64,000 nucleotides of DNA from Patescibacteria group bacterium (lineage in GTDB: Bacteria > Patescibacteriota > Patescibacteriia > Buchananbacterales > UBA6539): positions 118,467 through 182,466 of the forward strand of contig JBAZSB010000001.1 in assembly GCA_041662625.1 (NCBI GenBank), written 5' to 3'. Positions 1 through 61,805 of the stretch are shown piece by piece (position 1 is the first letter of the stretch; every line of letters starts with the position of its first letter). Made by a program: the position numbers and the translations under genes. The notes below the pieces were generated by a model. The model was not told where the DNA came from. It saw nothing but the letters and a program-made list of their open reading frames with translations, and ran no database searches.

Positions 1-305
1 CCTTATGGATAGCGTCGACCAGCGATCGGGCCACGGCCTTATTCCAGAATGCCCCTCATATTCTTGCTTTATTGATGAGGTTATCCATGGGTGGTTTGAT
101 TGTAATTGCGATTTTATATACTTTAATGTTACCCACCAAACCAAAAGATTATGGCTGGCAGCATTATCTGATTATGTTACTGCAGTGGGTTTTAGTCCCA
201 GTCACTTTAATTTTATTTGGGTCCTTTCCGGCCGTTGATGCCCAAACCCGTTTGGCGCTTGGGGGTCGCTTCCGACTTGGTTTTTGGGTGACGGAGAAAA
301 AATAA
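1..305 (+). CDS. Partial CDS, C-terminal end of a multi-TM membrane protein (possibly a membrane glycosyltransferase); reading frame stays open to the window edge
   Basis: Frame starting at nt 3 has no stop until TAA at 303-305; hydrophobic helices (GGLIVIAILYTLML..., LLQWVLVPVTLILFG); followed by two GT2 genes. Confidence 0.4.
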   Translation, partial: LWIASTSDRATALFQNAPHILALLMRLSMGGLIVIAILYTLMLPTKPKDYGWQHYLIMLLQWVLVPVTLILFGSFPAVDAQTRLALGGRFRLGFWVTEKK

Positions 306-370
306 AGCGATGCTAATCTACTAATACATGCTAATGATACGAATCGTTCGTAGCATTCGCATAAATTTGC
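306..370 (+). promoter_or_regulatory. About 65-bp conserved leader element (copy 1) directly upstream of a GT2 gene; contains an ATGCTAAT direct repeat and an imperfect hairpin (atgcta..acgaa/ttcgt agcat)
   Basis: Near-identical copy at 1413-1477 upstream of the second GT2 gene. Confidence 0.5.
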
Positions 371-19135: not shown

Positions 19136-20383
19136 ATGCTAGACATTAATAAAATTCGTAACGAAAAAGAAGCAGTCAAAAAAGCGCTTTTGAAAAGAAT
19201 TAGCGAGGCTGATTTTGATTTGGATGCAATTATTAAAATTGATGATTCTAGGCGTCAATTATTGGCTGAGGTTGAAGCTTTGAAAGCTGAAAGGAATAAA
19301 TTTTCCAAGACTAAGCCCAGCCCCGATATTATCGCCAAAATGAAAGCAACTGGTGAAAAGATCAAAGAACTTGATGAACAAGTTAAGGCGACTGAAACCG
19401 AACTGACTGAACGGCTTTCTGCTTTGCCTAATATCCCGGCCGATGATGTTTTGCCTGGTGGTAAAGAAAATAACAAAGTGATCAAAACTTTTGGCAAAAA
19501 GCCCCAGTTTAAATTCGAACCCAAAGATCATTATGATTTGGCCACAAGTCTTGGAATTATTGATTATGAACGGGCGGTTAAAATGTCAGGCAATGGCTTT
19601 TGGATTTACAAGGGGGCCGGAGCAATTTTAGAATGGGCGATTTTAAGCTATTTTATTAAATTCCATCAGGAAAATAATTATACTTTTATGATCCCGCCGT
19701 TTTTGCTGACTGAGCAGTCTGCTTATACTTCTGGACATTTGCCCAAATTCCGTGATGATTTATTCTGGACCCAGGATAAGCAATGCTTGGATGCCACAGC
19801 CGAGATGATGCTAGGGAATTACCATCGCGATGAAATTTTAAACGAAGAGGAACTACCTTTGAAATACGCCGCTTACTCAGCCTGCTTTCGGCGCGAAGCC
19901 GGATCTTACCGCAAAGAAGAGCGGGGGATGATCCGCGGCCACCAGTTTAATAAAATTGAAATGTTCCATTATGCCAAGCCGGCCCAGTCTTGGGATTGTT
20001 TTGCCGAATTAGTGAGCAATGCCGAAAAATTAGTGGAGGGCTTGGGACTTCATTATCAATCAGTCCAGTTGGCAGCTGCTGATGCTTCCGCGGCGATGGC
20101 AAAAACCGTGGATGTTGAAGTCTGGCTGCCCAGTATGAATACTTATAAAGAGGTTAGTAGTGTGTCTAATGCTTTAGACTACCAGGCTAGGCGGGGTAAC
20201 GTTCGATTTAAAAACAAGGCAGGTGGTAAAAACGATTTTGTTCACACTTTGAATGCTTCGGGTTTAGCCACTAGCCGGCTTTTGCCGGCAATTCTGGAGC
20301 AGTTCCAGAATAAAGACGGCAGTGTTGAAGTGCCAAAGGTTTTACAGAAATTCTGTGGTTTTAAGAAAATTGAAAAGAAATAA
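19136..20383 (+). CDS. serS: Seryl-tRNA synthetase
   Basis: Coiled-coil N-arm + class II core; 415 aa. Confidence 0.9.
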   Translation: MLDINKIRNEKEAVKKALLKRISEADFDLDAIIKIDDSRRQLLAEVEALKAERNKFSKTKPSPDIIAKMKATGEKIKELDEQVKATETELTERLSALPNIPADDVLPGGKENNKVIKTFGKKPQFKFEPKDHYDLATSLGIIDYERAVKMSGNGFWIYKGAGAILEWAILSYFIKFHQENNYTFMIPPFLLTEQSAYTSGHLPKFRDDLFWTQDKQCLDATAEMMLGNYHRDEILNEEELPLKYAAYSACFRREAGSYRKEERGMIRGHQFNKIEMFHYAKPAQSWDCFAELVSNAEKLVEGLGLHYQSVQLAAADASAAMAKTVDVEVWLPSMNTYKEVSSVSNALDYQARRGNVRFKNKAGGKNDFVHTLNASGLATSRLLPAILEQFQNKDGSVEVPKVLQKFCGFKKIEKK

Positions 20384-20423
20384 GGCAAAGTAAAAACCAC
20401 CCGCGACTTTGACAATTGTCCTT
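20384..20423. repeat. Conserved 40-bp motif (copy 1): aaggcaaagtaaaaaccacccgcgactttgacaattgtcc; on the - strand it is the 3' flank of the small gene 20499-20705
   Basis: Second copy at 20852-20890 with compensatory change in stem caaagt/actttg vs caaagt/attttg. Confidence 0.55.
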
Positions 20424-20498
20424 TTGTTGCTTTGGACATTGCTTCCAGTCGTCTAGGTGGTTTTGGGGGGCGCGGTGCGGGCCGGGTCGGGATAGAGG

Positions 20499-20705
20499 TC
20501 AGAACCTCTCAATCCCGTCGGTCTGGACTCGGAAGAGTCCGTAACCGAAGGTCCCGATCGTGCCGGCGACCAACAGCAGCATGGCGCCGATGACGGGAAT
20601 CGTTCCCAGAGTGACCTCCGAGATCTTGTTCACCGTTTCGGTGCTGCCGGCGATGCCAGTAATGGTTGAAAGAACCAACGCTGCGAGAAACATGTACTTG
20701 ATCAT
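20499..20705 (-). CDS. Small hydrophobic membrane protein (68 aa) in a GC-rich islet
   Basis: SD aggagagag; TM core; TTGACA-17-TATCAT promoter upstream. Confidence 0.5.
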   Translation of the reverse strand: MIKYMFLAALVLSTITGIAGSTETVNKISEVTLGTIPVIGAMLLLVAGTIGTFGYGLFRVQTDGIERF

Positions 20706-20762
20706 GGTGACTCTCTCCTCTAGTTCTCTAGCATTTGCTAGATCCTCAGTTTGAATAATATA

Positions 20763-20791
20763 ATGATAACATATTTAAAGAAATTTGTCAA
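20763..20791 (-). promoter_or_regulatory. Sigma70-type promoter TTGACA-N17-TATCAT for the small gene at 20705
   Basis: -35 (rc of 20786-91) and -10 (rc of 20763-68); paralogous promoter at 21417-21445. Confidence 0.6.
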
Positions 20792-20851
20792 TAGTAAATT
20801 GATAAAAATAGCTAAATTTAGTCAAATTATAGTTTAAACAAATCGAAAATA

Positions 20852-20890
20852 AGGCAAAGTGAAAACCGCCTGCGATTTTGACAGTATCCC
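20852..20890. repeat. Conserved 40-bp motif (copy 2): aaggcaaagtgaaaaccgcctgcgattttgacagtatcc
   Basis: See 20384-20423. Confidence 0.55.
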
Positions 20891-20975
20891 GAAGGACTCT
20901 ATCAGAATCGAGGCGGTTCCTCGTGTGTTGGGTGGACTCGGACGCCGAGGCTTGGCGACTGGCGTCCTACGTCAG

Positions 20976-21122
20976 TTACTTCTGCTCAGCGTTTTGCCGA
21001 GCTTTTTCGTCGGCCGCTTCCATCAGACTGCCGACTCTGGTAAAGACTCCGCCTATCATGGCAATGATTGTCTCACCAGTCGTGGTTGCAGCCTTTGCCG
21101 GGTTACTACTCTGCTCACTCAT
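20976..21122 (-). CDS. Small protein (48 aa), second gene of a two-gene mini-operon
   Basis: SD ggaagga 6 nt upstream of ATG; 42 nt after the upstream small gene; GC-rich. Confidence 0.35.
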   Translation of the reverse strand: MSEQSSNPAKAATTTGETIIAMIGGVFTRVGSLMEAADEKARQNAEQK

Positions 21123-21164
21123 GGATTTCCTTCCGTTTTCAGGCTCGTGTGCCTGACTGCTTTG

Positions 21165-21350
21165 TCAGCTTCTGACTCGGCTGACCCTTACCACTACGAC
21201 ACATAGCAGCATCGCAGCGCCCCCGTATAGCAGCGCCGCAAAAACTGTCATTGATGTGGGCAGCGCCATACTGCCGGTTATGCCGCCGACAGCGATGCCG
21301 GCCAGCAACAGCACGATGGCGACTGCACCCAAAAAAAGGTTCAATTTCAT
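21165..21350 (-). CDS. Small hydrophobic membrane protein (61 aa), possible paralogue of the 20499-20705 product
   Basis: SD gagggacag; TM helices; TTGACA-17-TATCAT promoter. Confidence 0.5.
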   Translation of the reverse strand: MKLNLFLGAVAIVLLLAGIAVGGITGSMALPTSMTVFAALLYGGAAMLLCVVVVRVSRVRS

Positions 21351-21416
21351 CTGTCCCTCGCTTTCTTTTTCCTTCCGGTTTATATCACTCTTGTTACCAT
21401 TCCGAATTGATATATA

Positions 21417-21445
21417 ATGATACCATTTTTTAGATAAACTGTCAA
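21417..21445 (-). promoter_or_regulatory. Sigma70-type promoter TTGACA-N17-TATCAT (paralogue of 20763-20791)
   Basis: The roughly 70-bp upstream regions of both small genes are clearly homologous. Confidence 0.6.
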
Positions 21446-21488
21446 TGGAAATTTAGGAAAATAGCTAAAATAAGCAATAAATATTATC

Positions 21489-21568: not shown

Positions 21569-22738
21569 ATGTATAGTTCTTGGGTTGAAATTTCCAAATC
21601 CGCTATTTCGTATAATCTTGCCCAATATCAAAGAATTGTTGGCTCGAAAGTTGCCGTCATGCCGATTGTTAAAAGTAATGCCTATGGTCATGGCATGATC
21701 CAGATTGCTAAGTTAGTCAGCGCAAAAGTCAAATGGTTAGGTGTGGTGAATTTGGGCGAAGCCTTGGCGTTACGCCAAAATAAAATTAAAAATCGAATTT
21801 TTGTTTTAAGCTATTGCCAGTCAGAGTTGTTAGAGGAGGGGATTAGGCAAAATATTGATTTGCCAGTTTATGATTTAGCCATGGCTAAGCTGATTTCCAA
21901 GAAAACAAGAAATCAAAAAATCAACCCGTTCGACTACCGCTCAGGGTTGATGGTGAGCGAAGTCGAATCCATCAAGAAAACAAAAGTGCATATTAAAATT
22001 GATACTGGTGCTTCACGGGTTGGTGTTTTACCAAAAGATGCGGTAAATTTTATCAGGCAGGTATGTCAACTACCAAATTTGAAAGTAGAAGGAATTTACA
22101 GTCATTTCGCCGCTTCTGAAGAAAATCCAAAGTATACTAAGTGGCAATTAAATAATTTCAATCAAGTTTTAGCCAATTTAAAAAAAGAAGGAATTAATAT
22201 TCCTTATAAACATTTTGCCTGCAGTGCGGCCGCTTTAGTTGAGCCAAAGTCGTATTTCAATCTAATTCGCCTTGGCTTAGGTCTTTATGGTTTGTGGCCG
22301 TCCAATTTGGCTAAAAAGATAGCAATCAAGAAATATCCATGGTTAAAATTAAAACCAGCTTTAAGTTGGAAGACTAAAATTATTCAAGTTAAAGAAATTT
22401 CCAAAGACACTAAAATTGGTTACGGCTGCACTTTTATCGCCAAGAAAAAAATGAAAATTGCAGTTTTGCCGGTTGGTTATTGGGAAGGCTATGATCGGCA
22501 CTTAAGTAATCAAGGAGAAGTGATAATCAAAAATAAAAAATGCCCAGTTATTGGGCGAGTCTGTATGAATTTAACTATGGTTGATGTCAGTTTAGTTAAA
22601 GATGTTAAAATAGGTGATGAGGTAGTCTTGCTAGGCGGGGGAGTACCAGCTGAAGAATTGGCAGAAAAGATTAGGACAATCAATTATGAAGTAGTGACGC
22701 GGATTAATCCTATCTTAGAAAGACGATATTTAAAATAA
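21569..22738 (+). CDS. alr: Alanine racemase
   Basis: PLP-lysine motif VKSNAYGHG; 389 aa. Confidence 0.9.
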   Translation: MYSSWVEISKSAISYNLAQYQRIVGSKVAVMPIVKSNAYGHGMIQIAKLVSAKVKWLGVVNLGEALALRQNKIKNRIFVLSYCQSELLEEGIRQNIDLPVYDLAMAKLISKKTRNQKINPFDYRSGLMVSEVESIKKTKVHIKIDTGASRVGVLPKDAVNFIRQVCQLPNLKVEGIYSHFAASEENPKYTKWQLNNFNQVLANLKKEGINIPYKHFACSAAALVEPKSYFNLIRLGLGLYGLWPSNLAKKIAIKKYPWLKLKPALSWKTKIIQVKEISKDTKIGYGCTFIAKKKMKIAVLPVGYWEGYDRHLSNQGEVIIKNKKCPVIGRVCMNLTMVDVSLVKDVKIGDEVVLLGGGVPAEELAEKIRTINYEVVTRINPILERRYLK

Positions 22739-22740
22739 AA

Positions 22741-22800
22741 AAATTGGGCTCCCGGTCGGCACAGCAGTTTTTCCTGAACTCTTTGTGAGTTCGACTGTGT
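22741..22800 (-). terminator. Strong Rho-independent terminator for a minus-strand transcript (ggctcccggccgacacacag...ctgtgccgaccgggagcc + TTTTTT)
   Basis: About 19-bp GC stem followed on the - strand by aattttttt. Confidence 0.65.
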
Positions 22801-23435
22801 GTCGGCCGGGAGCCGTCCAATTAGGGCGATGCGCTCGCTCATCAGCGTCTTGCCAGCCTTGGGCTGACAACGCCGAAATACGGGCGTGCCCGAACACGGA
22901 GATGCGGCTTAGCCAGTCGCGGGCGATCCCGGGTTTAGGCCTGGGCGCCGTGCAATCAGCGGGGTTTAGTCCCCGCAGCACTATGTTGGCAAATGCCGCT
23001 CTCCTATCTTAGGAACACTACCTCGTAGTGGGCAAGGACCCGTAGGTCCTCGCGCAGTGTCCCTTGTCCGCGCGCCACCTCGCGCTAAACCCGCTCAGTT
23101 TGCCCGAAGGCCGACGCCGCTGAGATTGATTGCGCGACTGAACGGGTACTACCGATTGGTCAACCAGCCAAGGTCCCCAGCCTTGCGGTCGACCAGAAGA
23201 TCAATGACTTAACCAAGAAAGCCATATTCTCCCTTCCTGTTTGTCGGTTGCGACGCTACGGAGCGTCTGGTTAAAACCCAAAGTAGAAAGTCTTGGTTAC
23301 GAACTTTCTACCCGTGGAATCGGGCTCCATACACCGGCCCAAACGGTGCGGTAGCCCCCATACAACGGGAATTGACGCAACAACATCGTTCGCCCTCCAT
23401 GAGCGCCATAACTTCTGACGCTTGTTGAGGATGTG
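22741..23435 (-). ncRNA. About 700-nt GC-rich (about 58%) hairpin-dense RNA candidate of unknown class, bounded by a promoter and an intrinsic terminator
   Basis: No credible ORF (only terminator-spanning or overlapping ORFs); many hairpins with UUCG/UACG tetraloops (gcc-uucg-ggc, aggacc-uacg-ggucc); promoter at 23438-23466. Confidence 0.4.
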
Positions 23436-23437
23436 GA

Positions 23438-23466
23438 TACGTTAACATATATCTAAAAATTTGTCA
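23438..23466 (-). promoter_or_regulatory. Minus-strand promoter TTGACA-N17-TAACGT driving the GC-rich RNA locus
   Basis: TTGACA = rc of 23461-66; 17-nt spacer. Confidence 0.45.
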
Positions 23467-23483
23467 ATGATAATTGAATAAAT

Positions 23484-24641
23484 ATGTCTAAGATTAGCAA
23501 AAAAAATAAGATTAAGGTCGGTGTAATTTTTGGTGGTCGCTCAGGCGAGCACGAAGTTTCTATTGTTTCCGCTCAGTCCGTAATGAAAGCTTTGGATCGG
23601 AACAAATATGAGGTTATTCCGATTGGCGTGACTAAGGAAGGCAAATGGATTGCCGGGCCCCAGGCAGTGCAATTTCTAAAAGAAGGGTTGAAAAAATTGC
23701 CGTTCAAATCAGTTTTAACGCCTGACCCAACCGAAAAACATCTGGTCAAAGTCAAGGAAAAAGGTTTGGTGCCGCTCAAGTCTCAAGGGTCGTCAATCAC
23801 TAACCTTGACGTAGTGTTTCCGTTAATCCACGGGACTTATGGCGAAGACGGCAAGCTGCAAGGACTTTTGGAACTGGCCAACATTGCTTATATTGGGGCC
23901 GGCGTTTTAGGTTCAGCTTTAGGCATGGATAAAATTGTCCAGAAACAATTGTTTGCTGAGGTGGGGTTGGCCATAACTAAATATACTTGGTTTTTAAGTC
24001 AGGATTGGCCTAGGAAAAGAAAAAATATTTTAAGCCAGCTGGAAAAAGAACTGAAATACCCGATGTTTACCAAGCCGGCCAATACCGGTTCCAGTGTTGG
24101 TGTGGGTAAATGCCATAATCAGAAAGAATTAATTTTGGGCATTGGTGATGCTAGCCAATATGATCGCAAGGTGATTGTTGAGCAGGGGATTAATAACATT
24201 TCTGAGATTGAAGTGGCGGTTTTAGGTAATGATAATCCCAAAGCTTCAGTGCCCGGCGAAATTATTGCTAGTAATGAATTTTATGATTATGATGCCAAAT
24301 ATGTTGATGGCAAATCACAGGCAATAATTCCGGCTAAACTGCCCCAAGCAGTGGTTAAGAAAATTCAAAGAATGGCAGTTGAGGCTTTTAAAGTTTTAGA
24401 TTTATCCGGTATGGCCCGGGTTGATTTTTTGGTCACCAAAGGCCGCTATCAAATTTATCTGAATGAAGTCAACACTATTCCCGGCTTTACTTCAATTTCC
24501 ATGTATCCAAAGCTCTGGCAGGCTTCCGGTCTTTCGTATTCTGATTTGCTGGGTGAATTGATTAAATTGGCAATTGAGCGTTTTAAAGAAAAAAATAAGC
24601 TGAAAACTTCTTATCAGCCGAAGCAGGATTGGTATAAATAA
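23484..24641 (+). CDS. ddl: D-alanine--D-alanine ligase
   Basis: KVGVIFGGRSGEHEVS N-terminus, ATP-grasp; 385 aa. Confidence 0.9.
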   Translation: MSKISKKNKIKVGVIFGGRSGEHEVSIVSAQSVMKALDRNKYEVIPIGVTKEGKWIAGPQAVQFLKEGLKKLPFKSVLTPDPTEKHLVKVKEKGLVPLKSQGSSITNLDVVFPLIHGTYGEDGKLQGLLELANIAYIGAGVLGSALGMDKIVQKQLFAEVGLAITKYTWFLSQDWPRKRKNILSQLEKELKYPMFTKPANTGSSVGVGKCHNQKELILGIGDASQYDRKVIVEQGINNISEIEVAVLGNDNPKASVPGEIIASNEFYDYDAKYVDGKSQAIIPAKLPQAVVKKIQRMAVEAFKVLDLSGMARVDFLVTKGRYQIYLNEVNTIPGFTSISMYPKLWQASGLSYSDLLGELIKLAIERFKEKNKLKTSYQPKQDWYK

Positions 24642-24645: not shown

Positions 24646-25509
24646 GTGAAACGCAAACGAGATTACCAAAGAAAAAATTTTAGGAACCCTTTTTTTAATA
24701 AGAAGGGGAAAACACATAAACGCCGGCCTTGGCTGGTTTTAATTTTATTTTTAGTTATTTTTTTTATCAGCTCATACTTTCTAAATAATATTAGCCAATT
24801 ACAGATTAAAACGGTCCAAATTAAAGGTAATGAGCATATTAGTCAGCAGGAAATTGAAGGCTTGGTCTTTAAACAGGCCCATGAGAGGCGTCTTTTCTTT
24901 TTCAGCCAGAATAACCTGATTTTTTTTAGCAAACGCGAATTGAAGAAAAAATTGAACGAAAATTACTTTTTGGAGCAGCTGAAAATCCATAAAAAATATC
25001 CTGGTACTTTAATTATTGAAATTAAAGAGGAAATTTCATCTTTAATTTGGTCGAGTGGCGGTATCCAGTATTACTTGGATTTAAAAGGAGTGGCCTTAAG
25101 AAAAGCCACGACTGATGACTTGATTATTGAGCCTGGAGCCGGGGAGATGAAACTTATTAGACCGCAAGTCAGTTCTGGTCAATATCCATTGATTTATGAT
25201 CAAAGTAATACTCCTGTTACTATTGGTCAGCCAATTATTACCGAAATTTTAGTTAATTTTATTATTAATTTAACTGAGCAAGTTAAACAGAGAGCTGAGT
25301 TTATTTTGGCTCACTACCAAATTCCTGACCCCAGTTCAACGGAAATTACTTTAGTTACTAATGAAGGTTTGAAAATATATTTTAGATTAACTGATCCATT
25401 AGATCAACAACTGGAAACCTTATTTTCGGTTTTAAACACAGAAGTTAAAGATTGGCATAGATTAGAATATATTGATTTACGTTTTGGCGGAAAAGTTTTT
25501 TGGAAATAA
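24646..25509 (+). CDS. ftsQ: Cell-division protein FtsQ/DivIB-like (TM + POTRA)
   Basis: Basic N-terminus, one TM, POTRA-like region; classic ddl-ftsQ synteny. Confidence 0.55.
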   Translation: MKRKRDYQRKNFRNPFFNKKGKTHKRRPWLVLILFLVIFFISSYFLNNISQLQIKTVQIKGNEHISQQEIEGLVFKQAHERRLFFFSQNNLIFFSKRELKKKLNENYFLEQLKIHKKYPGTLIIEIKEEISSLIWSSGGIQYYLDLKGVALRKATTDDLIIEPGAGEMKLIRPQVSSGQYPLIYDQSNTPVTIGQPIITEILVNFIINLTEQVKQRAEFILAHYQIPDPSSTEITLVTNEGLKIYFRLTDPLDQQLETLFSVLNTEVKDWHRLEYIDLRFGGKVFWK

Positions 25510-25800: not shown

Positions 25801-25945
25801 TTAAGTGACTCATTGAGATACTCAAATGGTCTTATAATGAGTCGCTTAACCAGATTTTACGACACCGTGTCGGTGTCATAAAATCTGGTCACCTTAAGCG
25901 ACTCATAAGGACAACAAAATGGTCATACTATGAGTCGCTTAAGGT
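25801..25945. repeat. About 145-bp nested palindromic element: three consecutive hairpins (gactcat..atgagtc; 17-bp central ccagattttacgacaccg|cggtgtcataaaatctgg; gactcat..atgagtc) linked by gcttaa/ttaagc palindromes
   Basis: Direct reading of the sequence; capable of alternative cruciform or three-way pairing. Confidence 0.7.
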
Positions 25946-32496: not shown

Positions 32497-32650
32497 CTCA
32501 TAGAATTTTGAATTTTTAATTTCGCCTCTCGACTCGCTTCGCTTGCTCGAGGCGACCTGAGCGGAGTCGAATGGTCGAATTTTGATTCAATATTATAATA
32601 TTTGAATATTCAAAATTGATTCAAAATTTAAAATTCAAAATTAAGATTTA
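32497..32650. repeat. Intergenic composite repeat, copy 1: AT-rich palindrome (aatattataatatt) flanked by ttgaat/ttcgaa words plus a GC-rich hairpin module
   Basis: Reverse complement of 39585-39730 (near identical); AT part also at 46070-46180. Confidence 0.75.
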
Positions 32651-33202
32651 TTTCAATGTGTAACTTTCGATTATTCTATACTCCGCACTATTGGGCAAAA
32701 GAGTGCTTTCCATCAGTTCCAGGCTTTTGACCGGAATTAACAAATTCGGCAATTTTATTGGTTCAGTTTTGAACTGGCAAGGGCCAACAATTCGGGCCAA
32801 AGTTAAATGCGGGTGCCAGGCTCGGTGATCAACGTCAATACCAATTTTTTCCAATTCCGCGCCAAGATTTTCTTGGAGGCCGGTTAAACTATCCCCTGCT
32901 TTTTCCTGGCTACTTAAAAAAATAACTCGCGGGTATTTTAAATTGGGAAAAGCGCCAATTGGACCGGTAATCAGTTCAGTTTGCTTGTACTTTTGCGCTA
33001 AATTTTTTAAGACAGTTTTAACTTGATTAATTTGTGCCTCATCTAAATAACCCAAAAAATGTAAAGTCAGATGAATGCCTTTGGTTTTTACGTAGCGAAT
33101 CACCGGCCGGGAATTAATTTTTTGACAAAGTGAAAGTAATTTATTTAATTCCCCTTTGATATTTTCCGGTAGGTTAATCGCTATAAAAACCCGTTTTTTC
33201 AT
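32648..33202 (-). CDS. 2'-5' RNA ligase / 2H phosphoesterase (ThpR/LigT)
   Basis: Two HxTx motifs (HLTLHF, HPHLTLAR); start taken at internal MKKRVFIAINLP because the upstream part of the ORF overlaps the divergent radical-SAM gene. Confidence 0.7.
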   Translation of the reverse strand: MKKRVFIAINLPENIKGELNKLLSLCQKINSRPVIRYVKTKGIHLTLHFLGYLDEAQINQVKTVLKNLAQKYKQTELITGPIGAFPNLKYPRVIFLSSQEKAGDSLTGLQENLGAELEKIGIDVDHRAWHPHLTLARIVGPCQFKTEPIKLPNLLIPVKSLELMESTLLPNSAEYRIIESYTLK

Positions 33203-36724: not shown

Positions 36725-36892
36725 CTACAAGGAACTTAGGCTATCGCCATAGATACCACTTGGCCGCCGACCAATGATCCAAGCACCGAATTCCCAGAGA
36801 AATACCCCTAGAGCGATGGCGAGAACAGCGATCGTCACGCCGGCAATAAAAAGGAATTCGGACAGAGTTAGTCTGTGATTGGTTGTTGGCAT
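36725..36892 (-). CDS. Small single-TM membrane protein (55 aa), third gene of a mini-protein operon
   Basis: MPTTNHRLTLSEFLFIAGVTIAVLAIALGVFLW...; SD gggaga; start 5 nt after the previous stop. Confidence 0.5.
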   Translation of the reverse strand: MPTTNHRLTLSEFLFIAGVTIAVLAIALGVFLWEFGAWIIGRRPSGIYGDSLSSL

Positions 36893-36896
36893 CTTT

Positions 36897-37124
36897 CTAC
36901 ATCTCCCACTTGGAAGAGCCGTGTGGCGATTGGGGTGGGTACGGGAACTCGTCACGGGCGACGTTTTCCCAGATTGAGCAAACCCGGTCAAAGAGCCACG
37001 ATAACGCCAGCCCCAGAGCCAGTACAATGCCGAAGGCTTGTCGTCTGACTAGAACTAGCAGACTCGCGCCGACGGCAAGTAGAATTATAACAATTGCCGT
37101 CCAGGTGGTAATGTCTCTTACCAT
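36897..37124 (-). CDS. Small two-TM membrane protein (75 aa), second gene of the operon
   Basis: MVRDITTWTAIVIILLAVGASLLVLV...; SD aagggagga; ATG 2 nt after the upstream stop (tga tc atg). Confidence 0.5.
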   Translation of the reverse strand: MVRDITTWTAIVIILLAVGASLLVLVRRQAFGIVLALGLALSWLFDRVCSIWENVARDEFPYPPQSPHGSSKWEM

Positions 37125-37126
37125 GA

Positions 37127-37276
37127 TCAGTCCTCCCTTATGACCAGAATGCCAAGGCCGCCAAAACAGATGGCACCTACATTCAGGCCGGCTACAATGA
37201 CTAGTACGGCTAGGTGTTTGGCTAGCCAAACTATTATTGCTGCTTGCCACAGAGCAATAAAAAGATCTCCTATCAT
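37127..37276 (-). CDS. Small hydrophobic protein (49 aa), first gene of the operon
   Basis: MIGDLFIALWQAAIIVWLAKHLAVLVIVAGL...; SD ggaggg 8 nt upstream. Confidence 0.5.
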   Translation of the reverse strand: MIGDLFIALWQAAIIVWLAKHLAVLVIVAGLNVGAICFGGLGILVIRED

Positions 37277-37344
37277 AATCAAGCCCTCCGTTGTTGTCCA
37301 CTGCAGTGAGCTTAGATAATTTATAGAAAAAAGTCAATTATAGA

Positions 37345-37385
37345 TATAGAAAAACCCGGCGGTCGCAGGGCGACGTCGGGTGTGA
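37345..37385 (-). terminator. Compound GC hairpin + TTTTT terminating the upstream mono-cistronic small gene
   Basis: cccgacgtcgccctgcgaccgccggg + ttttt on the - strand. Confidence 0.5.
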
Positions 37386-37415
37386 ATCTTCCCTCGGTTC
37401 ATCAAGGAGTTTTCC

Positions 37416-37562
37416 TCAAATTCCTTTGGGCGGAGTGTACCAGTGTTTTGGTCTCACAAAACCAATGAGCAGGTCGGACCAAGCCATCGGCGGCCATGTC
37501 AACCAAAGGTTGAACGCGACAATGGCTAACACTCCAACTATTACCGCAATGATCCACCACAT
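37416..37562 (-). CDS. Small hydrophobic protein (48 aa), mono-cistronic
   Basis: MWWIIAVIVGVLAIVAFNLWLTWPP...; SD ggaggg 8 nt upstream; TTGACT-17-TAAGAT promoter near 37700. Confidence 0.5.
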   Translation of the reverse strand: MWWIIAVIVGVLAIVAFNLWLTWPPMAWSDLLIGFVRPKHWYTPPKGI

Positions 37563-37818
37563 ATCTGTACCCTCCAAGGGTTGCCCTTTCTACTGTAGAG
37601 AATTATTCCCAACAAATAGGGTAGTTCTCCCGGAAGGATATCATCATTAGCGAATGCAAAAGCTATCTATTTTTAATCTTAAGCCTATTGGAAGAAAAAG
37701 TCAATTTATCCTCCTACCTTTTAATTATTTTATAAAAGATAACTCCATAGATTGATAAATGATTTCAATTTGATTTTAAAGTATCAAAGGTGGGAGGATT
37801 TATCCCCAAAAAGAGCTT

Positions 37819-38632: not shown

Positions 38633-39583
38633 ATGAATATGGAAGTTTCAAAGTCAAAAATTGTTTTTCTCGGCACGCCTGAGTTTGCTATGCCAATCTT
38701 GCAGGCTTTAATTGGCAATAATTATAAGCTAGCCTTAGTTATTACTCAGCCGGATAAACCAGCAGGACGTAAACAAGAATTAATTCCCCCACCGATTAAA
38801 GTTTTAGCTCAGAAAAATAATCTGGCAATTGCCCAGCCAAATAATAAAAAAGAATTAGCCGCTATCTTTGAACAGAATAAATTTGATCTGGCAGTATTAG
38901 CGGCCTATGGCATGATTATTCCTGACGAAATTTTGACCAAACCGAAGTTTGGTTTTTTAAATATTCATCCTTCGCTTTTGCCGAAGTATCGTGGCTCTTC
39001 ACCAATTCAATCAGCAATTTTGACCGGCGACAAAAAAACTGGCGTTAGCATCATTCAGCTTGCCAAAAAGATTGATGCCGGTCCGATAGTAGCCCAAGCA
39101 GAGACGGAAATTGAACCTCAAGACAATGTCGAAATACTAAGCCAGAAATTAGCGGAATTGGGTGGGCAGTTGCTAATTGAAACTATACCGGGTTATCTGA
39201 AAGGTGAGGTTAAATTACGGCCGCAAAACGAAACCGAAGCCACTTTTACTAAGATGATTGAACGCGAAGATGGCCTGATAAATTGGCAAAAAACAGCCAG
39301 TCAAATAGAACGGCAATTTCGGGCTTTTTACCCTTGGCCAGGTGTATTTACCCACTTGGCGGGCAAACGCCTTAAAATCGCAAATTTAGGCGTTTTAGAG
39401 GGTGATTTTAAGCCTAATCTAGGTCCAGGGACGGTATTTTTAGGGCCAAATCAAACCTTGGCAGTTAAATGTGGTCAGGGCGCAGTTGAACTTAAGGCGG
39501 TCCAGCTTGAAGGTAAAAAAGAACTGCTCGGCAAAGAATTTTTACGCGGGCAGAAAGAGTTGATTGGAAAGATTTTGGAATAA
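38633..39583 (+). CDS. fmt: Methionyl-tRNA formyltransferase
   Basis: N-terminal formyltransferase core + C-terminal domain; def-fmt synteny. Confidence 0.9.
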   Translation: MNMEVSKSKIVFLGTPEFAMPILQALIGNNYKLALVITQPDKPAGRKQELIPPPIKVLAQKNNLAIAQPNNKKELAAIFEQNKFDLAVLAAYGMIIPDEILTKPKFGFLNIHPSLLPKYRGSSPIQSAILTGDKKTGVSIIQLAKKIDAGPIVAQAETEIEPQDNVEILSQKLAELGGQLLIETIPGYLKGEVKLRPQNETEATFTKMIEREDGLINWQKTASQIERQFRAFYPWPGVFTHLAGKRLKIANLGVLEGDFKPNLGPGTVFLGPNQTLAVKCGQGAVELKAVQLEGKKELLGKEFLRGQKELIGKILE

Positions 39584-39584
39584 A

Positions 39585-39730
39585 TTTGAATTTCGAATTT
39601 TTAATTTTGAATCAATTTTTAATATTCGAATATTATAATATTGAATTGAAATTCGACCATTCGACTCCGCTCAGGTCGCCTCGAGCAAGCGAAGCGAGTC
39701 GAGAGGCGAAATTAAAAATTTAAAATTTTA
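39585..39730. repeat. Intergenic composite repeat, copy 2 (inverted relative to copy 1), between convergent fmt and the phosphatase gene
   Basis: rc matches 32497-32650 including the GC hairpin tcgactcgcttcgcttgctcgaggcgacctgagcggagtcga. Confidence 0.75.
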
Positions 39731-42457: not shown

Positions 42458-42955
42458 TTAAGCCACGGTAAGGACCGGCGCCGGCGCATACCCGATGATC
42501 AGGCTTGATCCCGGTGCCGGACTGGCGACGAGCGAACTCCCAACGAAAGAACTTCCGATATCTGCGTACGCGGCTTCGACGACGGCGAAATGGTACGCAT
42601 CGGGGTGTGTGGCCGGGACTACGACAGCGGCCATGGTTCTCGTGCCGGCGATGTATGACACATCGCCGGTTCTCATCAACTCAACGTCCACGCGGTTCGC
42701 CGTAATATTGGCTGTGCTCTTCGAAAGGGCCGTGCTCGTCCCAATGTCTACATCGGGCCGGGCGGAAATCGTCAACAGGTAATCGCCAGCGGTCGCAGCG
42801 TACGTTTCGGGCGTGACCGTCAACAGGGGGGTAATCGCGGCAGGCTGTACCACGAGGGCTTCGATCGCAGCGTTCGGCGCGGTCTTCGCGGAAGCCGGGG
42901 TGGCCAGGACGAGCATAATCGTAAACGCAATCAACAGCACGGTACATCGTTTCAT
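42458..42955 (-). CDS. Secreted Ala/Thr/Val-rich hypothetical protein (165 aa) in a GC-rich (about 60%) island
   Basis: Signal peptide MKRCTVLLIAFTIMLVLATPASA; SD agagagg; TTGACA -35 upstream. Confidence 0.45.
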   Translation of the reverse strand: MKRCTVLLIAFTIMLVLATPASAKTAPNAAIEALVVQPAAITPLLTVTPETYAATAGDYLLTISARPDVDIGTSTALSKSTANITANRVDVELMRTGDVSYIAGTRTMAAVVVPATHPDAYHFAVVEAAYADIGSSFVGSSLVASPAPGSSLIIGYAPAPVLTVA

Positions 42956-43396
42956 AGGGACCTCTCTTTCTGATTCGCGTTCCATCTAAGGGACGCAGTC
43001 CTTGTCAACTTCGTTCCGTTTTTGACGCTTGGTGCCAATCTGCCGTTGGCGTTTCTCCTCCTTTCGATCTAGCTTCTTTATCCGAAGCGGATTGGGCTTC
43101 AGTAAGAAGCTAGGGTTGCCAATCTTGGATCAGCCTCCTTTCTCCAGGGCCGCGCTGGTAACACAAGCGGCTGTCACGGCATTCTTCGTAGCCATGATTT
43201 GGAGAACCTCCAGGTACTGTAGAAGCGGCGACATTGCCGCCACAGGTTGGTTGTATACTAACCTATTTTTACCAAAAAGTCAATTTTTGGGGAATTTTTA
43301 GCTAAATTTATTTAAAATAAAAAGTCCCAGCGGTTTTGTGGCACTGGGTGATTCTAATTGGTTATTTTTTAAGTGTAGGAATTATGGTTTCCTGAT

Positions 43397-45393: not shown

Positions 45394-46067
45394 AAATTAT
45401 GTTTTTCTTTAATAATTTTTTCCGCCTCTTTGTATTGCCTGACTTTTTTTAGCCAAGGTAATTTATAGGCAACGCTGGGTAGCCAATTGCTCATCGTGCC
45501 GCCAGGTTTGACCGTAAATAAAACTTGGTTGATAAAAAGTCCTTTATGCCCCCGCTTTAGCATCGTCAGCCATAAATCCCAGTCCTGGAACCTTTTTAAT
45601 TTTTTATCAAAACCGGGGAAATGTTTTTGCCTAATCAAAGAAGTGGTATGGATATAAGGCATTGTTTTTAATCGTTTGGGATCAAAGGGCCAAAGCTTGA
45701 AAGTCTTGCGGCCAAATTTAAATGATGAATAAACGTATGAGGCACCCTGTTTTTTCCGGAGAGCTTTAGTCATTATCTCAAGCATTTTTGGGGTCATCAC
45801 GATATCGGCATCACAAAAAATTAGAAATTGGCCCCGGCTGATTTTGGCTCCGGCGTTTCTGGCCCCACCCGCCCCTTGGTTTGGCTGATTGACAATAGTA
45901 ATCTGCCTTTGGTATTTTTGCAGAATTTTTAAGCTGTTATCCGTGCTGCCATCATTAACAGCGATAACTTCGAAACTTCTGAAGGTTTGGCTAAAAACGC
46001 TGGCTAAACATTTTTCCAGCGTCTTTTGGGCATTATAAACAGGGATGATGATGCTGATTTGGGGCAT
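45390..46067 (-). CDS. Glycosyltransferase family 2
   Basis: ISIIIPVYNA...AVNDGSTDNS, DAD motif. Confidence 0.8.
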   Translation of the reverse strand: MPQISIIIPVYNAQKTLEKCLASVFSQTFRSFEVIAVNDGSTDNSLKILQKYQRQITIVNQPNQGAGGARNAGAKISRGQFLIFCDADIVMTPKMLEIMTKALRKKQGASYVYSSFKFGRKTFKLWPFDPKRLKTMPYIHTTSLIRQKHFPGFDKKLKRFQDWDLWLTMLKRGHKGLFINQVLFTVKPGGTMSNWLPSVAYKLPWLKKVRQYKEAEKIIKEKHNL

Positions 46068-46069
46068 AA

Positions 46070-46180
46070 TTTTTAAATTCGAATTTTGAATTTTGAATCA
46101 ATTTTGAATATTCAAATATTATAATATTGAATCAAAATTCGAAATTAAAAATTCAAAATTATTTTAAAATTGCTTTAATC
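46070..46180. repeat. Intergenic AT-rich repeat, copy 3 (lacks the GC hairpin module)
   Basis: ttttgaattttgaatcaattttgaatattcaaatattataatattgaatcaaaattcga identical to rc of copy 1. Confidence 0.7.
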
Positions 46181-56562: not shown

Positions 56563-56865
56563 TTAGGCAAGGACAAGGGCGGGTTGTCCACTCGTCGTCG
56601 TGTCGGCGCCGTAATCGCCGCGGCCAGTGAAGAAAGTGGACATCACATCTTCCATATCCGCCAAGGGGCGGTTACCTTCGAAGACGGTCTTTTGGCCGGT
56701 AAACTTCTCCCAACTCGGGGATTTCTCGGCCTCGGCGAGGTCACTTTCGGTGGCGTGGTGGTGTGTGCACCCCGGCCTGATCCGGAGTATGAGTCCGTTG
56801 CTGTCCTTGGCCAGAAATACTGGCTTTCCATTATGGACATATAGGACTTCGATCTTGTACGGCAT
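56563..56865 (-). CDS. Hypothetical 100-aa protein in a GC-rich islet (paralogue A)
   Basis: SD agagaggag; MPYKIEVLYVHNGKPV...PGCTHHH; about 56% GC. Confidence 0.45.
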   Translation of the reverse strand: MPYKIEVLYVHNGKPVFLAKDSNGLILRIRPGCTHHHATESDLAEAEKSPSWEKFTGQKTVFEGNRPLADMEDVMSTFFTGRGDYGADTTTSGQPALVLA

Positions 56866-57075
56866 TAGTATTCTCCTCTCTTTCTTTGCTTCTGCTTCCG
56901 TTGAGACACACAAACCCAAATTGATAAGTGTATTATAGCAGATTATTATGGGTATGTCAATGGATTTTGAATAAAAATGGCTAAAATTAGATATTTTTGT
57001 TGATTTAAAGTAATAAAAAAACACCAGTCCAAGAGGAAAAACCCTGGACCGGCTTCAAAAGGTCAGAAATAAGAA

Positions 57076-57408
57076 TCAGTCGCTGCTGCAACTACCAGCA
57101 GGAACCGGCGTCGGCTGGTCACTTTGGTGATTGAAGTACACCGTCATGTGGCGGACCATGCAGCGCCGGGCTAAGAAAGTAAAGTCAGGGCTGACAATGC
57201 CCAGGCGCTCGGCGAATGCTTCAGCCGTGGTAAACTCGGGTGTTGTATCCGGGTTAACTGGAAACGCTGGTGAGCCCTCGTCAAAGACCTCAGGCTCGGG
57301 TTCTCCGGCCACAAGAACCATTAGACGGTGCTTTGTGGCCATTCCACCCATACTCTCCTCGACAAGGCAACTTCTTTGACCCGGGTTAACATAAAGAACC
57401 TTTAGCAT
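57076..57408 (-). CDS. Hypothetical 110-aa protein in a GC-rich islet (paralogue B, shares the VLYV(N/H)xG N-terminus)
   Basis: SD ggaggaaaag; TTGACA-17-TAATTT promoter upstream. Confidence 0.45.
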   Translation of the reverse strand: MLKVLYVNPGQRSCLVEESMGGMATKHRLMVLVAGEPEPEVFDEGSPAFPVNPDTTPEFTTAEAFAERLGIVSPDFTFLARRCMVRHMTVYFNHQSDQPTPVPAGSCSSD

Positions 57409-57509
57409 ATCTTTTCCTCCATCCCCGTTGGCTTGGGGAAATCTAGTTTTGCTGTGACTAGCTAGATAAATTATCACGGTAGGTATTTTTTGTCAAAAAT
57501 GAATAAAAC

Positions 57510-61663: not shown

Positions 61664-61800
61664 TTCTCCTCCAAAGCCACTATTTTCTAATAATGAACTT
61701 GGAGGAGAGGAGCTGGTATACACGCTATCGCATGTTACGTCAGCTCCCCAATACTTTCGGACTCGTTTCGCTCGCTTCAGCCAATCGGCTGATTAGCGGG
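61664..61800. repeat. About 130-bp structured direct repeat, copy 1, immediately 3' of the stop codon of the minus-strand gene 61806-62036
   Basis: About 95% identical to 62270-62395; hairpins ctcctccaa...ttggaggag and ggagctg...cagctcc; 5-nt indel between copies destroys the apparent ORF. Confidence 0.8.
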
Positions 61801-61805
61801 AGGAA

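What the first reader, a model, noticed from the sequence alone, without database searches (positions are those of the whole stretch)
22741..23470. About 700-nt GC-rich hairpin-dense non-coding RNA candidate bounded by a promoter and a strong intrinsic terminator
The 700 bp between alr and ddl are 58% GC and lack any credible ORF; the only two either run through the terminator stem and T-run or overlap each other. Read on the minus strand, the region starts 25-30 nt after a TTGACA-N17-TAACGT promoter and ends in a 19-bp GC stem plus TTTTTT. In between are many short GC stems capped by UUCG/UACG/GNRA-like tetraloops (gcc-uucg-ggc, aggacc-uacg-ggucc, cgggg-acuaaa-ccccg). That is the signature of a large structured RNA rather than mRNA. 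No RNase P, tmRNA or SRP consensus could be recognised by eye. Size and composition are in the range of large ornate RNAs (OLE, GOLLD, ROOL or raiA-like), or it could be an undescribed class. Two mini-ORFs with perfect SDs (29 and 21 aa) are embedded, so a dual-function or small-peptide locus is not excluded.
Basis: seen in the sequence. Interest (0 to 1): 0.7.

Follow-up and report, generated by a model that had tools for sequence, protein, structure and literature searches.

The report
Orphan GC-rich noncoding RNA cassette
A self-contained, GC-rich, roughly 690-base transcription unit wedged between two cell-wall genes of an uncultured CPR (Buchananbacteria-like) bacterium is non-coding and matches no known RNA family, but only two copies of a 37-base hairpin in it are shared with relatives, so it looks like a lineage-specific regulatory RNA locus rather than a new giant ornate RNA.

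Summary
Window 22741-23435 is 57.7% GC in a 40.1% GC window. On the minus strand it runs from a TTGACA-17-TAACGT promoter to a long hairpin plus U7 terminator. It has no codon periodicity, unlike the other GC-rich islands here, which are small ORFan protein genes. Rfam 15 gives nothing, so OLE, GOLLD, ROOL, raiA, RNase P, tmRNA and SRP membership is not met.

The "large ornate RNA" reading is only partly supported. In relatives, other units occupy the same site, divergently upstream of ddl. Only a 37-nt bulged hairpin (ACCGCA...UGYAUGG) is shared. I found five instances in four genomes, two of them in this window (23322-23357 and 23158-23194). Seven of 13 pairs show compensatory changes. The box is read in two different frames, so conservation is at RNA level. 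Each copy lies 13-35 nt after a strong SD plus start codon of a 21-37 codon mini-ORF. The remaining ~575 nt have no detectable homologue.

Best reading: a stand-alone, fast-evolving regulatory ncRNA whose function sits in the RBS-plus-hairpin modules, possibly a ribosome-gated attenuator. This is inferred, not shown. It shares a palindromic promoter-upstream box with neighbouring GC-rich cassettes.

The parts
23485..23497 (-). Promoter-upstream palindromic box CTAATCTTAGACA (family consensus GCTAA-WT-TTAGC-YATTTT). Here it overlaps ddl codons 1-5.
   Evidence: Pattern CTWAWHTTAGVYA has 5 sites in the window against 0.3 expected. All lie just upstream of the -35 of minus-strand GC-rich cassettes. 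The same box precedes cassettes in L006, L007, L017, L088, L089 and L094 and, read by eye, L103.
23439..23467 (-). Sigma-70-type promoter: -35 TTGACA (23467-23462), 17-nt spacer, -10 TAACGT (23444-23439). Predicted start near 23432.
   Evidence: Read from the sequence and listed by the regex scan. Equivalent consensus promoters head the related units in L017, L089 and L103.
22741..23432 (-). Predicted primary transcript, about 690 nt, 57.7% GC, non-coding.
   Evidence: No Rfam family.
23393..23430 (-). 5' leader helix in which CCUC (23430-23427) pairs with the SD of mini-ORF1 (GGAGGG, 23398-23393).
   Evidence: MFE equals centroid for the 143-nt 5' unit. Prediction only.
23297..23386 (-). Mini-ORF1, 29 codons (MLLRQFPLYGGYRTVWAGVWSPIPRVESS), with a strong SD.
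   Evidence: The peptide is not conserved: substitutions are spread evenly over codon positions, with about 9 non-synonymous and 1 synonymous (hand count).
23322..23357 (-). Conserved hairpin motif, copy 1 (GGGCU-A-CC-GCACCG-UUUGGGC-CGGUGU-AU-GG-AGCCC).
   Evidence: CM R1 67.5 bits. Homologues at L017 5853-5903(-) and L089 3270-3320(-). Covariation.
23273..23311 (-). Internal terminator-like hairpin (9 bp, 23311-23303 with 23291-23283). The mini-ORF1 stop codon (23299-23297) sits in its loop, and UUUGGGUUUU follows.
   Evidence: Read from the sequence and folded. Function is inferred.
23160..23237 (-). SD2 (GGAAGGGAG, 23237-23229) and mini-ORF2, 21 codons (MAFLVKSLIFWSTARLGTLAG). SD2 and the AUG are predicted to be base-paired.
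23158..23194 (-). Conserved hairpin motif, copy 2 (GGUCG-A-CC-GCAAGG-CUGGGGA-CCUUGG-CU-GG-U-UGACC). It is read in a different frame from copy 1.
   Evidence: CM R1 14.5 bits, E=3.9e-4 in the 781-nt element and E=0.04-0.12 in larger searches. Frames.
22815..23157 (-). Species-specific GC-rich 3' tail, dense in hairpins (UUCG, UACG and ACUAAA loops), with possible long-range helices.
   Evidence: z -4.1 for 22820-23254; I1, I9, I10. No homologue found.
22737..22814 (-). Intrinsic terminator: a long hairpin at 22747-22814, then CAA and U7. The U run overlaps the alr stop codon.
   Evidence: I2.

Best explanation
It is a stand-alone non-coding RNA gene of a Buchananbacteria-like CPR bacterium. It is transcribed on the minus strand, convergent with alr and divergent from ddl.

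Shown:
- It has its own consensus promoter and terminator.
- It lacks every coding signature tested.
- It matches no curated RNA family.
- It contains two copies of a 37-nt bulged hairpin. That hairpin recurs at the same genomic site in three other genomes, with compensatory base changes and in two different reading frames.
- Each copy lies 13-35 nt downstream of a strong Shine-Dalgarno plus start codon of a 21-37 codon mini-ORF.
- The Shine-Dalgarno sequences are predicted to be base-paired.

Inferred:
- The RBS-plus-hairpin modules are the functional part. They would be recognised by the ribosome and/or an RNA-binding factor.
- The long 3' tail is a fast-evolving, species-specific appendage.

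The specific mechanism I favour is ribosome-gated attenuation (sub-probability about 0.2). When SD1 is freed, a ribosome translates mini-ORF1 through hairpin 1. It stops in the loop of an internal terminator-like hairpin (23273-23311) and prevents that hairpin from forming. This switches output from a roughly 160-nt RNA to the roughly 690-nt RNA, which carries module 2 and the tail.

The unit also belongs to a set of GC-rich promoter-to-terminator cassettes in this genome. These share a palindromic box upstream of the -35, so it is probably co-regulated with them.
For: Unit boundaries and composition.

Non-coding:
- Period-3 power is 0.44-0.78 of background (not significant). Most GC-rich coding cassettes give 2.4-11.9 (two short ones 1.7-2.0), and alr and ddl give 5.9 and 10.3.
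- Stop codons occur in all frames.
- No Pfam or PHROG hits.
- No protein homologue for the longest open stretch.

Not a known RNA.

The conserved hairpin:
- nhmmer and blastn find only this core, in L017 and L089.
- The CM finds a second copy in the window and one in L103.
- Over five sequences, 92% of cells are paired and 7 of 13 pairs carry compensatory changes. None of 500 shuffles reaches the observed covariation, and slid controls give about 0.03-0.09 against 0.55.
- Its G-U pairs exist only on the minus strand.
- The ACCGCA box is read in two frames.
- A 1.01-Mb search finds no other instance.

SD sequestration and the stop codon in a hairpin loop.

Shared promoter box.

Related non-coding units at the same site also lack periodicity.
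Against: - No expression data exist, so the promoter, terminator and internal attenuator are all sequence predictions.
- There are only five motif instances from four genomes. Two were picked by a structure-aware model, which biases the pair counts towards the structure.
- A degenerate-pattern scan of JGI metagenome contigs found only the same organism. The motif is therefore rare, or my pattern was too strict.
- The 5' unit on its own folds only modestly better than shuffles (z -1.9 to -2.6).
- The internal U tract (UUUGGGUUUU) is interrupted.
- No downstream gene exists for an attenuator to regulate.
- About 575 nt have no homologue. Most of the 700 nt carry no evidence of selection beyond composition and folding energy.
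Confidence: 0.5

Rival explanations
1. It is a small-protein locus. Mini-ORF1 (29 aa) and/or mini-ORF2 (21 aa) are the products, and the rest is a long structured UTR that stabilises the mRNA. This is what the other GC-rich cassettes of this genome look like.
For: - The SDs are strong and correctly spaced.
- Mini-ORFs of 29-30 codons recur in w1, L017, L103 and L089c when its ATG start is used.
- Neighbouring GC-rich islands are bona fide small membrane or secreted protein genes with the same promoter box.
- L102 has a 30-aa ORF followed by a long GC-rich tail.
Against: - The peptides share nothing outside the hairpin.
- Within the hairpin, changes fall equally on codon positions 1, 2 and 3, with about 9 non-synonymous and 1 synonymous.
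- The same RNA box is read in two different frames.
- There is no period-3 signal.
- There are no family hits.
Confidence: 0.2
2. It is a decaying remnant of a horizontally acquired GC-rich cassette. It would still be transcribed from a resident promoter but have no function of its own. The site upstream of ddl is simply a hot spot where such cassettes come and go.
For: - The content of the site differs in nearly every relative. It is empty in L004, L005 and L088. It holds unrelated small ORFs in L006, L007, L101 and L102, and unrelated non-coding units in L085.
- The cassette proteins are strict ORFans.
- All nine contigs carrying one ddl allele break about 140-165 nt upstream of ddl.
- The 3' 575 nt has no homologue.
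Against: - The hairpin module is kept at nucleotide level between genomes whose Ddl proteins are only 64-76% identical, while the flanks are randomised.
- It is duplicated within the unit, with compensatory changes.
- The promoter, the terminator and both SDs are intact.
- Folding is well below shuffles.
Confidence: 0.15
3. Its role lies in the act of transcription rather than in the RNA. A strong convergent, antisense unit inserted into the ancestral alr-ddl operon would uncouple or down-tune alr read-through into ddl. The shared palindromic box overlaps the ddl start codon, which would couple ddl expression to the cassette regulator.
For: - alr and ddl are adjacent and co-oriented in L004, L005 and L088.
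- Here the unit's U run overlaps the alr stop codon. Its -35 lies 17 nt from the ddl ATG, and the palindrome covers ddl codons 1-5.
- The same overlap occurs in L017, L007 and L103.
Against: - This does not explain the RNA-level covariation of the hairpin or the paired RBSs.
- Units with quite different content sit at the same place.
- No ddl promoter could be assigned with confidence (one search lists only a 9/12 match at 23442-23471).
- It is compatible with the best explanation rather than exclusive of it.
Confidence: 0.1
4. It is a divergent member of a known RNA class: a large ornate RNA (OLE, GOLLD, ROOL, raiA, HEARO); a housekeeping RNA (RNase P, tmRNA, SRP, 6S); or a guide-RNA array (CRISPR or a TIGR stem-loop array).
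For: Only its size, GC content and hairpin density. TIGR systems do occur in CPR bacteria, including a Buchananbacteria MAG (PMC12045711).
Against: - No Rfam 15 hit at gathering score in the window or in eight related loci, and only junk at E<=10.
- ARAGORN finds no tmRNA.
- There are no tandem or interspersed repeat units.
- The neighbours are SerRS, Alr, Ddl and FtsQ, not Nop/Tas, Cas, IscB or an RT.
Confidence: 0.02

Closest known systems
Orphan structured-ncRNA candidates found as long GC-rich intergenic regions in AT-rich bacterial genomes (the GC-IGR approach; e.g. PMC8632094, PMC11109978, PMC8723152, titles and abstracts seen)
   Same: It has the same signature: an unusually long and GC-rich intergenic region in an AT-rich genome, its own promoter and terminator, no coding potential, and a small motif supported by covariation.
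   Different: Only a 37-nt module is conserved, in four genomes. The bulk of the RNA is species-specific. The motif is always coupled to an RBS and mini-ORF. No family has been described.
Large ornate RNAs: OLE, GOLLD, ROOL, raiA motif and HEARO (Rfam families; the list is from my own knowledge)
   Same: Size range (about 200-800 nt), high predicted structure content, and stand-alone genes.
   Different: No covariance-model match. Those classes are conserved over their full length across many genera, and this one is not. None of their typical partners is present (OLE-associated proteins, phage context, IscB).
Dual-function sRNAs and leader-peptide attenuators (SgrS/SgrT, RNAIII/hld, SR1/SR1P; trp, pyrBI and erm leaders; established knowledge, not tested here)
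   Same: Short translated or translatable ORFs sit inside a structured RNA. The SD is masked by pairing. A stop codon is placed inside a terminator-like hairpin, so ribosome position could decide the transcript's fate.
   Different: No downstream structural gene is regulated. The peptides are not conserved. There are two modules in series. The conserved element is a hairpin inside the ORF, not the ORF or a regulatory codon run.
Phage 'morons': autonomous promoter-gene-terminator units of deviant composition (established knowledge)
   Same: Each is an autonomous transcription unit with a strong promoter, a terminator and atypical GC content. Each is inserted between unrelated genes and varies between close relatives.
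   Different: This one is chromosomal and sits between housekeeping genes. It has no phage similarity. It carries no protein gene. The cassettes share a host-lineage-specific palindromic box.

Membership tests
OLE / GOLLD / ROOL / raiA / HEARO (large ornate RNAs in Rfam) | Match to the family covariance model at or near the gathering score | tested here: not met
   cmscan of the whole window at gathering score gives 0 hits. At E<=10 on 22600-23600, only miRNA-like hits on the terminator hairpin appear. Eight related loci give 0 hits.
OLE / GOLLD / ROOL / raiA / HEARO | Full-length conservation of a multi-domain fold across genera | tested here: not met
   Downstream of the hairpin there is no similarity to the units in L017, L089, L085 or L103 (z<1.4).
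RNase P RNA / tmRNA / SRP RNA / 6S RNA | Covariance-model or ARAGORN match | tested here: not met
TIGR array (dual-repeat or stem-loop type; PMC12045711) | Tandem units repeated 5-15 times, with conserved edge and loop repeats or box C/D-flanked stem-loops | tested here: not met
   TRF finds no array. The repeat finder finds only 10-17-nt chance-level repeats. Box C/D spacing was not examined in detail.
TIGR array | An adjacent gene for a Nop-domain Tas protein | tested here: not met
   The flanking genes are seryl-tRNA synthetase, alanine racemase, D-Ala-D-Ala ligase and FtsQ-like. The same conserved neighbourhood is seen in relatives. The rest of the 922-kb contig was not available.
Leader-peptide transcription attenuator | A short ORF with its own RBS in the 5' part of the transcript | tested here: met
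   Mini-ORF1 at 23297-23386(-) with SD GGAGGG. Analogous ORFs are present in L017, L089 and L103.
Leader-peptide transcription attenuator | A terminator hairpin whose formation depends on ribosome position | tested here: inconclusive
   There is a 9-bp hairpin with the stop codon in its loop, followed by UUUGGGUUUU. Similar but weaker arrangements occur in L103, L017 and L089c. Termination activity cannot be tested with these tools.
Leader-peptide transcription attenuator | A downstream structural gene under its control | tested here: not met
   There is no coding signal downstream. The next gene on that strand is absent, because alr is convergent.
Type I toxin-antitoxin (small hydrophobic toxin mRNA) | A conserved small hydrophobic or membrane peptide | tested here: not met
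   The mini-ORF peptides are not conserved and not transmembrane-like. There are no Pfam or PHROG hits.
Type I toxin-antitoxin | An overlapping or adjacent antisense RNA antitoxin | not testable with these tools
   This needs strand-specific transcript mapping.
GC-rich promoter-to-terminator cassettes of this genome (descriptive group defined here) | The palindromic box GCTAA-WT-TTAGC 10-14 nt upstream of a TTGACA -35, then a GC-rich body and an intrinsic terminator, on the minus strand | tested here: met
   (D5, D10).
GC-rich promoter-to-terminator cassettes of this genome | Body encodes a small protein, shown by period-3 signal | tested here: not met
   the target gives 0.44, while six of eight coding cassettes give 2.4-11.9 (the other two give 1.7-2.0).

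The most novel reading that the evidence does not exclude
The hairpin-plus-RBS module defines an undescribed CPR-specific riboregulator class: a ribosome- or protein-gated switch embedded in mini-ORFs. It would be one output of a lineage-specific regulon of hypervariable, GC-rich, ORFan and non-coding cassettes, all driven from promoters with a common palindromic operator (GCTAA-N2-TTAGC). These cassettes turn over rapidly at fixed chromosomal hot spots such as the site upstream of ddl. The result would be a moron-like accessory layer in the reduced genomes of episymbiotic bacteria, possibly serving host interaction or defence.
Probability: 0.2. Interest if true: 0.7.

Novelty: new variant of a known kind. 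Interest (0 to 1): 0.45.

Why it matters
CPR/Patescibacteria have tiny genomes, and almost nothing is known about their regulatory RNAs. This locus gives a concrete, testable candidate:
- a small hairpin motif with covariation support, always coupled to a masked ribosome-binding site;
- an RNA whose remainder evolves too fast to align.

The locus also exposes a broader pattern. Many GC-rich, self-contained ORFan and non-coding cassettes share an operator-like palindrome in a 40% GC genome. If that pattern is general, it would say something about how these symbionts acquire and regulate accessory functions. It also cautions against reading "GC-rich, hairpin-dense, no ORF" as evidence for a large ornate RNA class.

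Tried and rejected
1. Known RNA families. Rfam at gathering score and at E<=10, and ARAGORN, found nothing.

2. A hidden or decayed protein gene.
- Six-frame reading, period-3 test, Pfam and PHROGs.
- phmmer of a 91-aa open stretch against 1.84 billion proteins found nothing.

3. Mobile-element, phage or plasmid origin. blastn against phage and plasmid collections gave no match. There are no terminal inverted repeats.

4. More homologues by pattern.
- A degenerate core pattern in viral contigs gave 0 hits. In JGI metagenome contigs it recovered only the same organism.

5. Synteny walk with all 12 contig look-ups. This yielded L089 and L103 as new motif carriers. L017 came from the genome scan. 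The three contigs with an identical protein (L001-L003) are 100% identical over the region, so they give no population signal.

6. Full-length homology between the motif-carrying units. Local alignment against dinucleotide shuffles was not significant.

7. Folding energy as a discriminator. It does not separate the target from GC-rich coding cassettes.

8. CsrA-type GGA enrichment. A hand count of about 10 GGA matches the roughly 12 expected from composition (own estimate, no tool call), so this was dropped.

9. TIGR or CRISPR array. There are no repeats and no effector gene nearby.

10. Literature. Searches for CPR or Buchananbacteria ncRNAs or GC-rich cassettes gave nothing relevant.
Full report
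**Organism and setting.** The flanking genes are seryl-tRNA synthetase (19136-20383), alanine racemase (21569-22738), D-Ala-D-Ala ligase (23484-24641) and an FtsQ-like protein (24646-25509), all on the plus strand. The Ddl protein is identical to one from an NCBI "Patescibacteria group bacterium" MAG on a 922-kb contig. Its nearest named relatives are Candidatus Buchananbacteria, at 70-81% identity. The window is 40.1% GC. It contains no tRNA, no tmRNA and no Rfam family at gathering score.

**Checking the observation.** The 745-nt alr-ddl spacer is 55-58% GC, about 4 sd above the mean for 700-nt windows.
- Promoter: on the minus strand it starts after TTGACA (23467-23462), a 17-nt spacer and TAACGT (23444-23439).
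- Terminator: it ends in a long hairpin (22747-22814) followed by CAA and U7. That U run overlaps the alr stop codon.
- ORFs: the only ones are the two mini-ORFs with strong SDs (29 aa, 23297-23386; 21 aa, 23160-23225), short chance ORFs, and an 83-aa ORF that runs through the terminator.
- Folding: whole-unit energy is about 6-7 sd below dinucleotide shuffles on either strand.

So the description is accurate.

**Is it non-coding?** The window holds several other GC-rich islands: 20400-20830, 20870-21475, 36740-37700, 42458-42985, 56563-57000, 57076-57500 and 61800-63170. When read, each is a minus-strand unit with a consensus promoter, an SD, a small ORF (often a membrane or signal-peptide protein) and a terminator. 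That made "just another small-protein cassette" the obvious rival.

A period-3 test separates them. Six of eight coding cassettes give 2.4-11.9 times background power (the two short ones give 1.7 and 2.0, not significant), and alr and ddl give 5.9 and 10.3. The target gives 0.44-0.78, which is not significant. Further negatives:
- Stop codons occur in all six frames.
- There are no Pfam or PHROG matches.
- The longest open stretch (91 aa) finds nothing among 1.84 billion representative proteins.

I conclude the unit is non-coding apart from, possibly, the mini-ORFs. Folding energy does not discriminate. By parts the target gives z = -1.9, -3.1 and -5.5, while coding cassettes span +0.2 to -5.0.

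**Known families.** Rfam 15 gives nothing at gathering score for the window or for eight related loci. At E<=10 on the region, only miRNA-like matches to the terminator hairpin appear. Membership of OLE, GOLLD, ROOL, raiA, HEARO, RNase P, tmRNA, SRP or 6S is therefore not met. TIGR stem-loop arrays occur in CPR bacteria (PMC12045711). They were considered and rejected: there are no repeated units and no Nop-domain gene next door.

**Comparative evidence.** Three other metagenome contigs carry the identical protein and a 100% identical spacer, so they give no variation. I then walked Ddl synteny through GTDB representatives and metagenome assemblies. The position divergently upstream of ddl is a hot spot.
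- It is empty in L004, L005 and L088.
- It holds unrelated GC-rich small-ORF cassettes in L006, L007, L101 and L102.
- It holds unrelated GC-rich non-coding units in L085.
- All nine contigs with one ddl allele break about 140-165 nt upstream of ddl.

Sequence similarity to the target exists only in L017 (Ddl 64% identical) and L089 (76%). It is confined to about 35-50 nt in the 5' part. Downstream of that core the units do not align better than shuffles. No unit hits anything else in about 1 Mb of loci, nor phage or plasmid collections.

**The conserved core is an RNA hairpin.** The core folds as GGGCU-A-CC-GCACCG-[UUUGGGC]-CGGUGU-AU-GG-AGCCC. A covariance model built from the three cores found two further instances.
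- A second copy sits in the window itself at 23148-23199(-): 14.5 bits, E=3.9e-4 within the 781-nt element, and 0.04-0.12 in larger searches.
- One sits in the serS-ddl unit of L103: 13.8 bits, E=0.018 in 21.5 kb.

Both lie on the same strand, at the orthologous site. Over the five sequences, 92% of cells are paired. Seven of 13 pairs show changes on both sides. No shuffle of 500 reaches the observed covariation, and slid registers give 0.02-0.09 against 0.55. There is a caveat. The two weak members were selected by a structure-aware model and the alignment is fitted to it, so these numbers lean towards the structure. A model rebuilt from the five found no further instance in 1.01 Mb, where the best other hit had E=0.69 in a non-CPR locus.

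Three further points favour RNA-level constraint on the minus strand.
- Several pairs are G-U, which would be A-C mismatches on the other strand.
- Within mini-ORF1, differences among w1, L017 and L089c fall equally on codon positions 1, 2 and 3. There are about nine non-synonymous changes and one synonymous change, and fourfold-degenerate third positions are invariant (hand count).
- The ACCGCA box is read as (U)AC-CGC-A in copy 1, L017 and L089c, but as ACC-GCA in copy 2 and L103.

**Anatomy of the modules.** Every motif instance lies 13-35 nt downstream of a strong SD plus start codon. The ORFs that cross it are 21-37 codons long. Four of them are 29-30 codons if the ATG start is used for L089c. 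In the window both SDs are predicted to be paired. SD1 pairs with an upstream CCUC, and SD2 and AUG2 pair with the first codons of mini-ORF2. In L017 the SD pairs with CUCCUUU inside the ORF.

The mini-ORF1 stop codon (23299-23297) sits in the loop of a perfect 9-bp hairpin (23311-23303 with 23291-23283) that is followed by UUUGGGUUUU. Weaker versions occur in L103, L089c and L017, with the stop codon in or at the base of a hairpin followed by a short U-rich stretch.

This arrangement underlies my preferred mechanism, ribosome-gated attenuation that chooses between a roughly 160-nt and a roughly 690-nt RNA. It is inference only. The U tract is poor, and there is no downstream gene to regulate.

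**A shared promoter box.** The repeat search had flagged about 50-nt similarities among the cassette promoters (D5 and D10). Listing all TTGACA-type promoters shows a clear pattern. Those followed by GC-rich DNA carry GCTAA-WT-TTAGC-YATTTT about 10-14 nt upstream of the -35. This holds in this window and in L006, L007, L017, L088, L089 and L094 and, read by eye, L103. A degenerate pattern has five sites in the window against 0.3 expected, all at such promoters. The pattern was derived from these sites, so the enrichment is indicative only. For the target, and for L017, L007 and L103, the box overlaps the first codons of ddl. The target is thus one member of a probable regulon, or of a set with common promoter ancestry. 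It is the non-coding member.

**Verdict.** The feature is real and its description is correct. It is non-coding and belongs to no described RNA family. Evidence for selection covers only two roughly 37-nt hairpin modules coupled to masked ribosome-binding sites. The other roughly 575 nt are species-specific. I therefore rate it a new variant of a known kind: a stand-alone, possibly dual-function or attenuator-type bacterial ncRNA. It is not a new large ornate RNA class.

Confidence in the general reading is about 0.5, and in the specific attenuation mechanism about 0.2. The rivals are:
- small peptides as the product, 0.2;
- a decaying acquired cassette, 0.15;
- transcriptional interference with alr-ddl, 0.1 (not exclusive);
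- a known family, 0.02.

Interest is 0.45. The hairpin motif and the cassette/operator system in CPR genomes are worth a proper Infernal/R-scape survey and transcript mapping, but the present support rests on four genomes and no expression data.

Noticed in passing
window 20400-20830, 20870-21475, 36740-37700, 42458-43000, 56563-57000, 57076-57500, 61800-63170 (all minus strand): There are at least seven GC-rich (49-60%) stand-alone cassettes in a 40% GC genome. Each has a consensus promoter, an SD, small ORFan ORF(s) (transmembrane or signal-peptide-like) and a terminator. Codon periodicity confirms coding for most. The 175-aa protein has no relative among 5.8 billion proteins other than itself. 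One cassette (20976-21122) has a homologue in L101 at the site upstream of ddl.
   Followed up: partly
window 20809-20821, 21462-21474, 23485-23497, 56978-56993, 63152-63167; also L006 ~8560, L007 ~6000, L017 ~6010, L088 ~1695, L089 ~740/3030/3440, L094 ~2900, L103 ~1935: An operator-like palindrome, GCTAA-WT-TTAGC (then YATTTT), lies 10-14 nt upstream of the -35 of the GC-rich cassettes. The window has 5 sites against 0.3 expected. Upstream of ddl it overlaps the ddl start codon (ATG-nCT-AAn-nTT-AGC = M-x-K-I/F-S). This suggests a common regulator or a shared promoter module.
   Followed up: partly
L089 2065-2470 and 2590-2980 (minus strand): Two tandem paralogous GC-rich (61-63%) units of about 400 nt sit between alr and ddl, each with its own promoter and terminator. 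They are about 70% identical, with conserved blocks. RNAalifold predicts 86 pairs, 11 with compensatory changes from just two sequences. There is no Rfam hit, and no period-3 signal in copy a. This may be another undescribed structured RNA.
   Followed up: partly
window 61664-61773 and 62269-62378 (minus strand): A 110-nt element is 98% identical in two copies, each directly after the stop codon of a cassette ORF. It folds into three stable hairpins (146-nt context -62.7 kcal/mol, z = -6.95). It could be a shared 3' UTR module, a processing site or a recombination site.
   Followed up: partly
window 32501-32656, 39575-39730, 46063-46160: AT-rich repeats of about 80-156 nt are 89-94% identical in direct and inverted orientation, and are built from TTGAATATTCAAA-type palindromes. 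They sit at intergenic positions, like a MITE or a shared regulatory region.
   Followed up: no
window 25801-25849 and 25894-25942: Two 49-nt palindromic hairpin repeats (TTAAGYGACTCAT...ATGAGTCGCTTAA, 78% identical, 93 nt apart) lie in the otherwise empty 985-nt gap between the ftsQ-like gene and sdpI. Relatives have a similar long gap there.
   Followed up: no
window 300-370 and 1406-1476: A 71-nt repeat, 94% identical, lies just upstream of two consecutive genes (383-1411 and 1523-2389). It may be a duplicated leader or promoter region.
   Followed up: no
window 47158-47313: A tandem 78-nt duplication (83% identical) lies inside the 421-aa ORF at 46159-47424(-), giving an in-frame 26-aa repeat.
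   Followed up: no
L090-L093 (contigs encoding Ddl P0118): All nine assemblies carrying this ddl allele end 139-165 nt upstream of ddl. This suggests strain-level heterogeneity or repeats at the cassette hot spot that break assemblies.
   Followed up: no
window 1-64000: There is no tRNA, no rRNA and no Rfam family at gathering score in 64 kb.
   Followed up: yes
L089 3043-3091 (minus strand): The terminator hairpin of unit L089c weakly resembles the conserved motif (AACGCAC...GUGUAAGUAAGCAG; R1 8.8 bits, E 0.05 in 1.45 kb). This hints that the motif and the terminator hairpins may be evolutionarily related.
   Followed up: no
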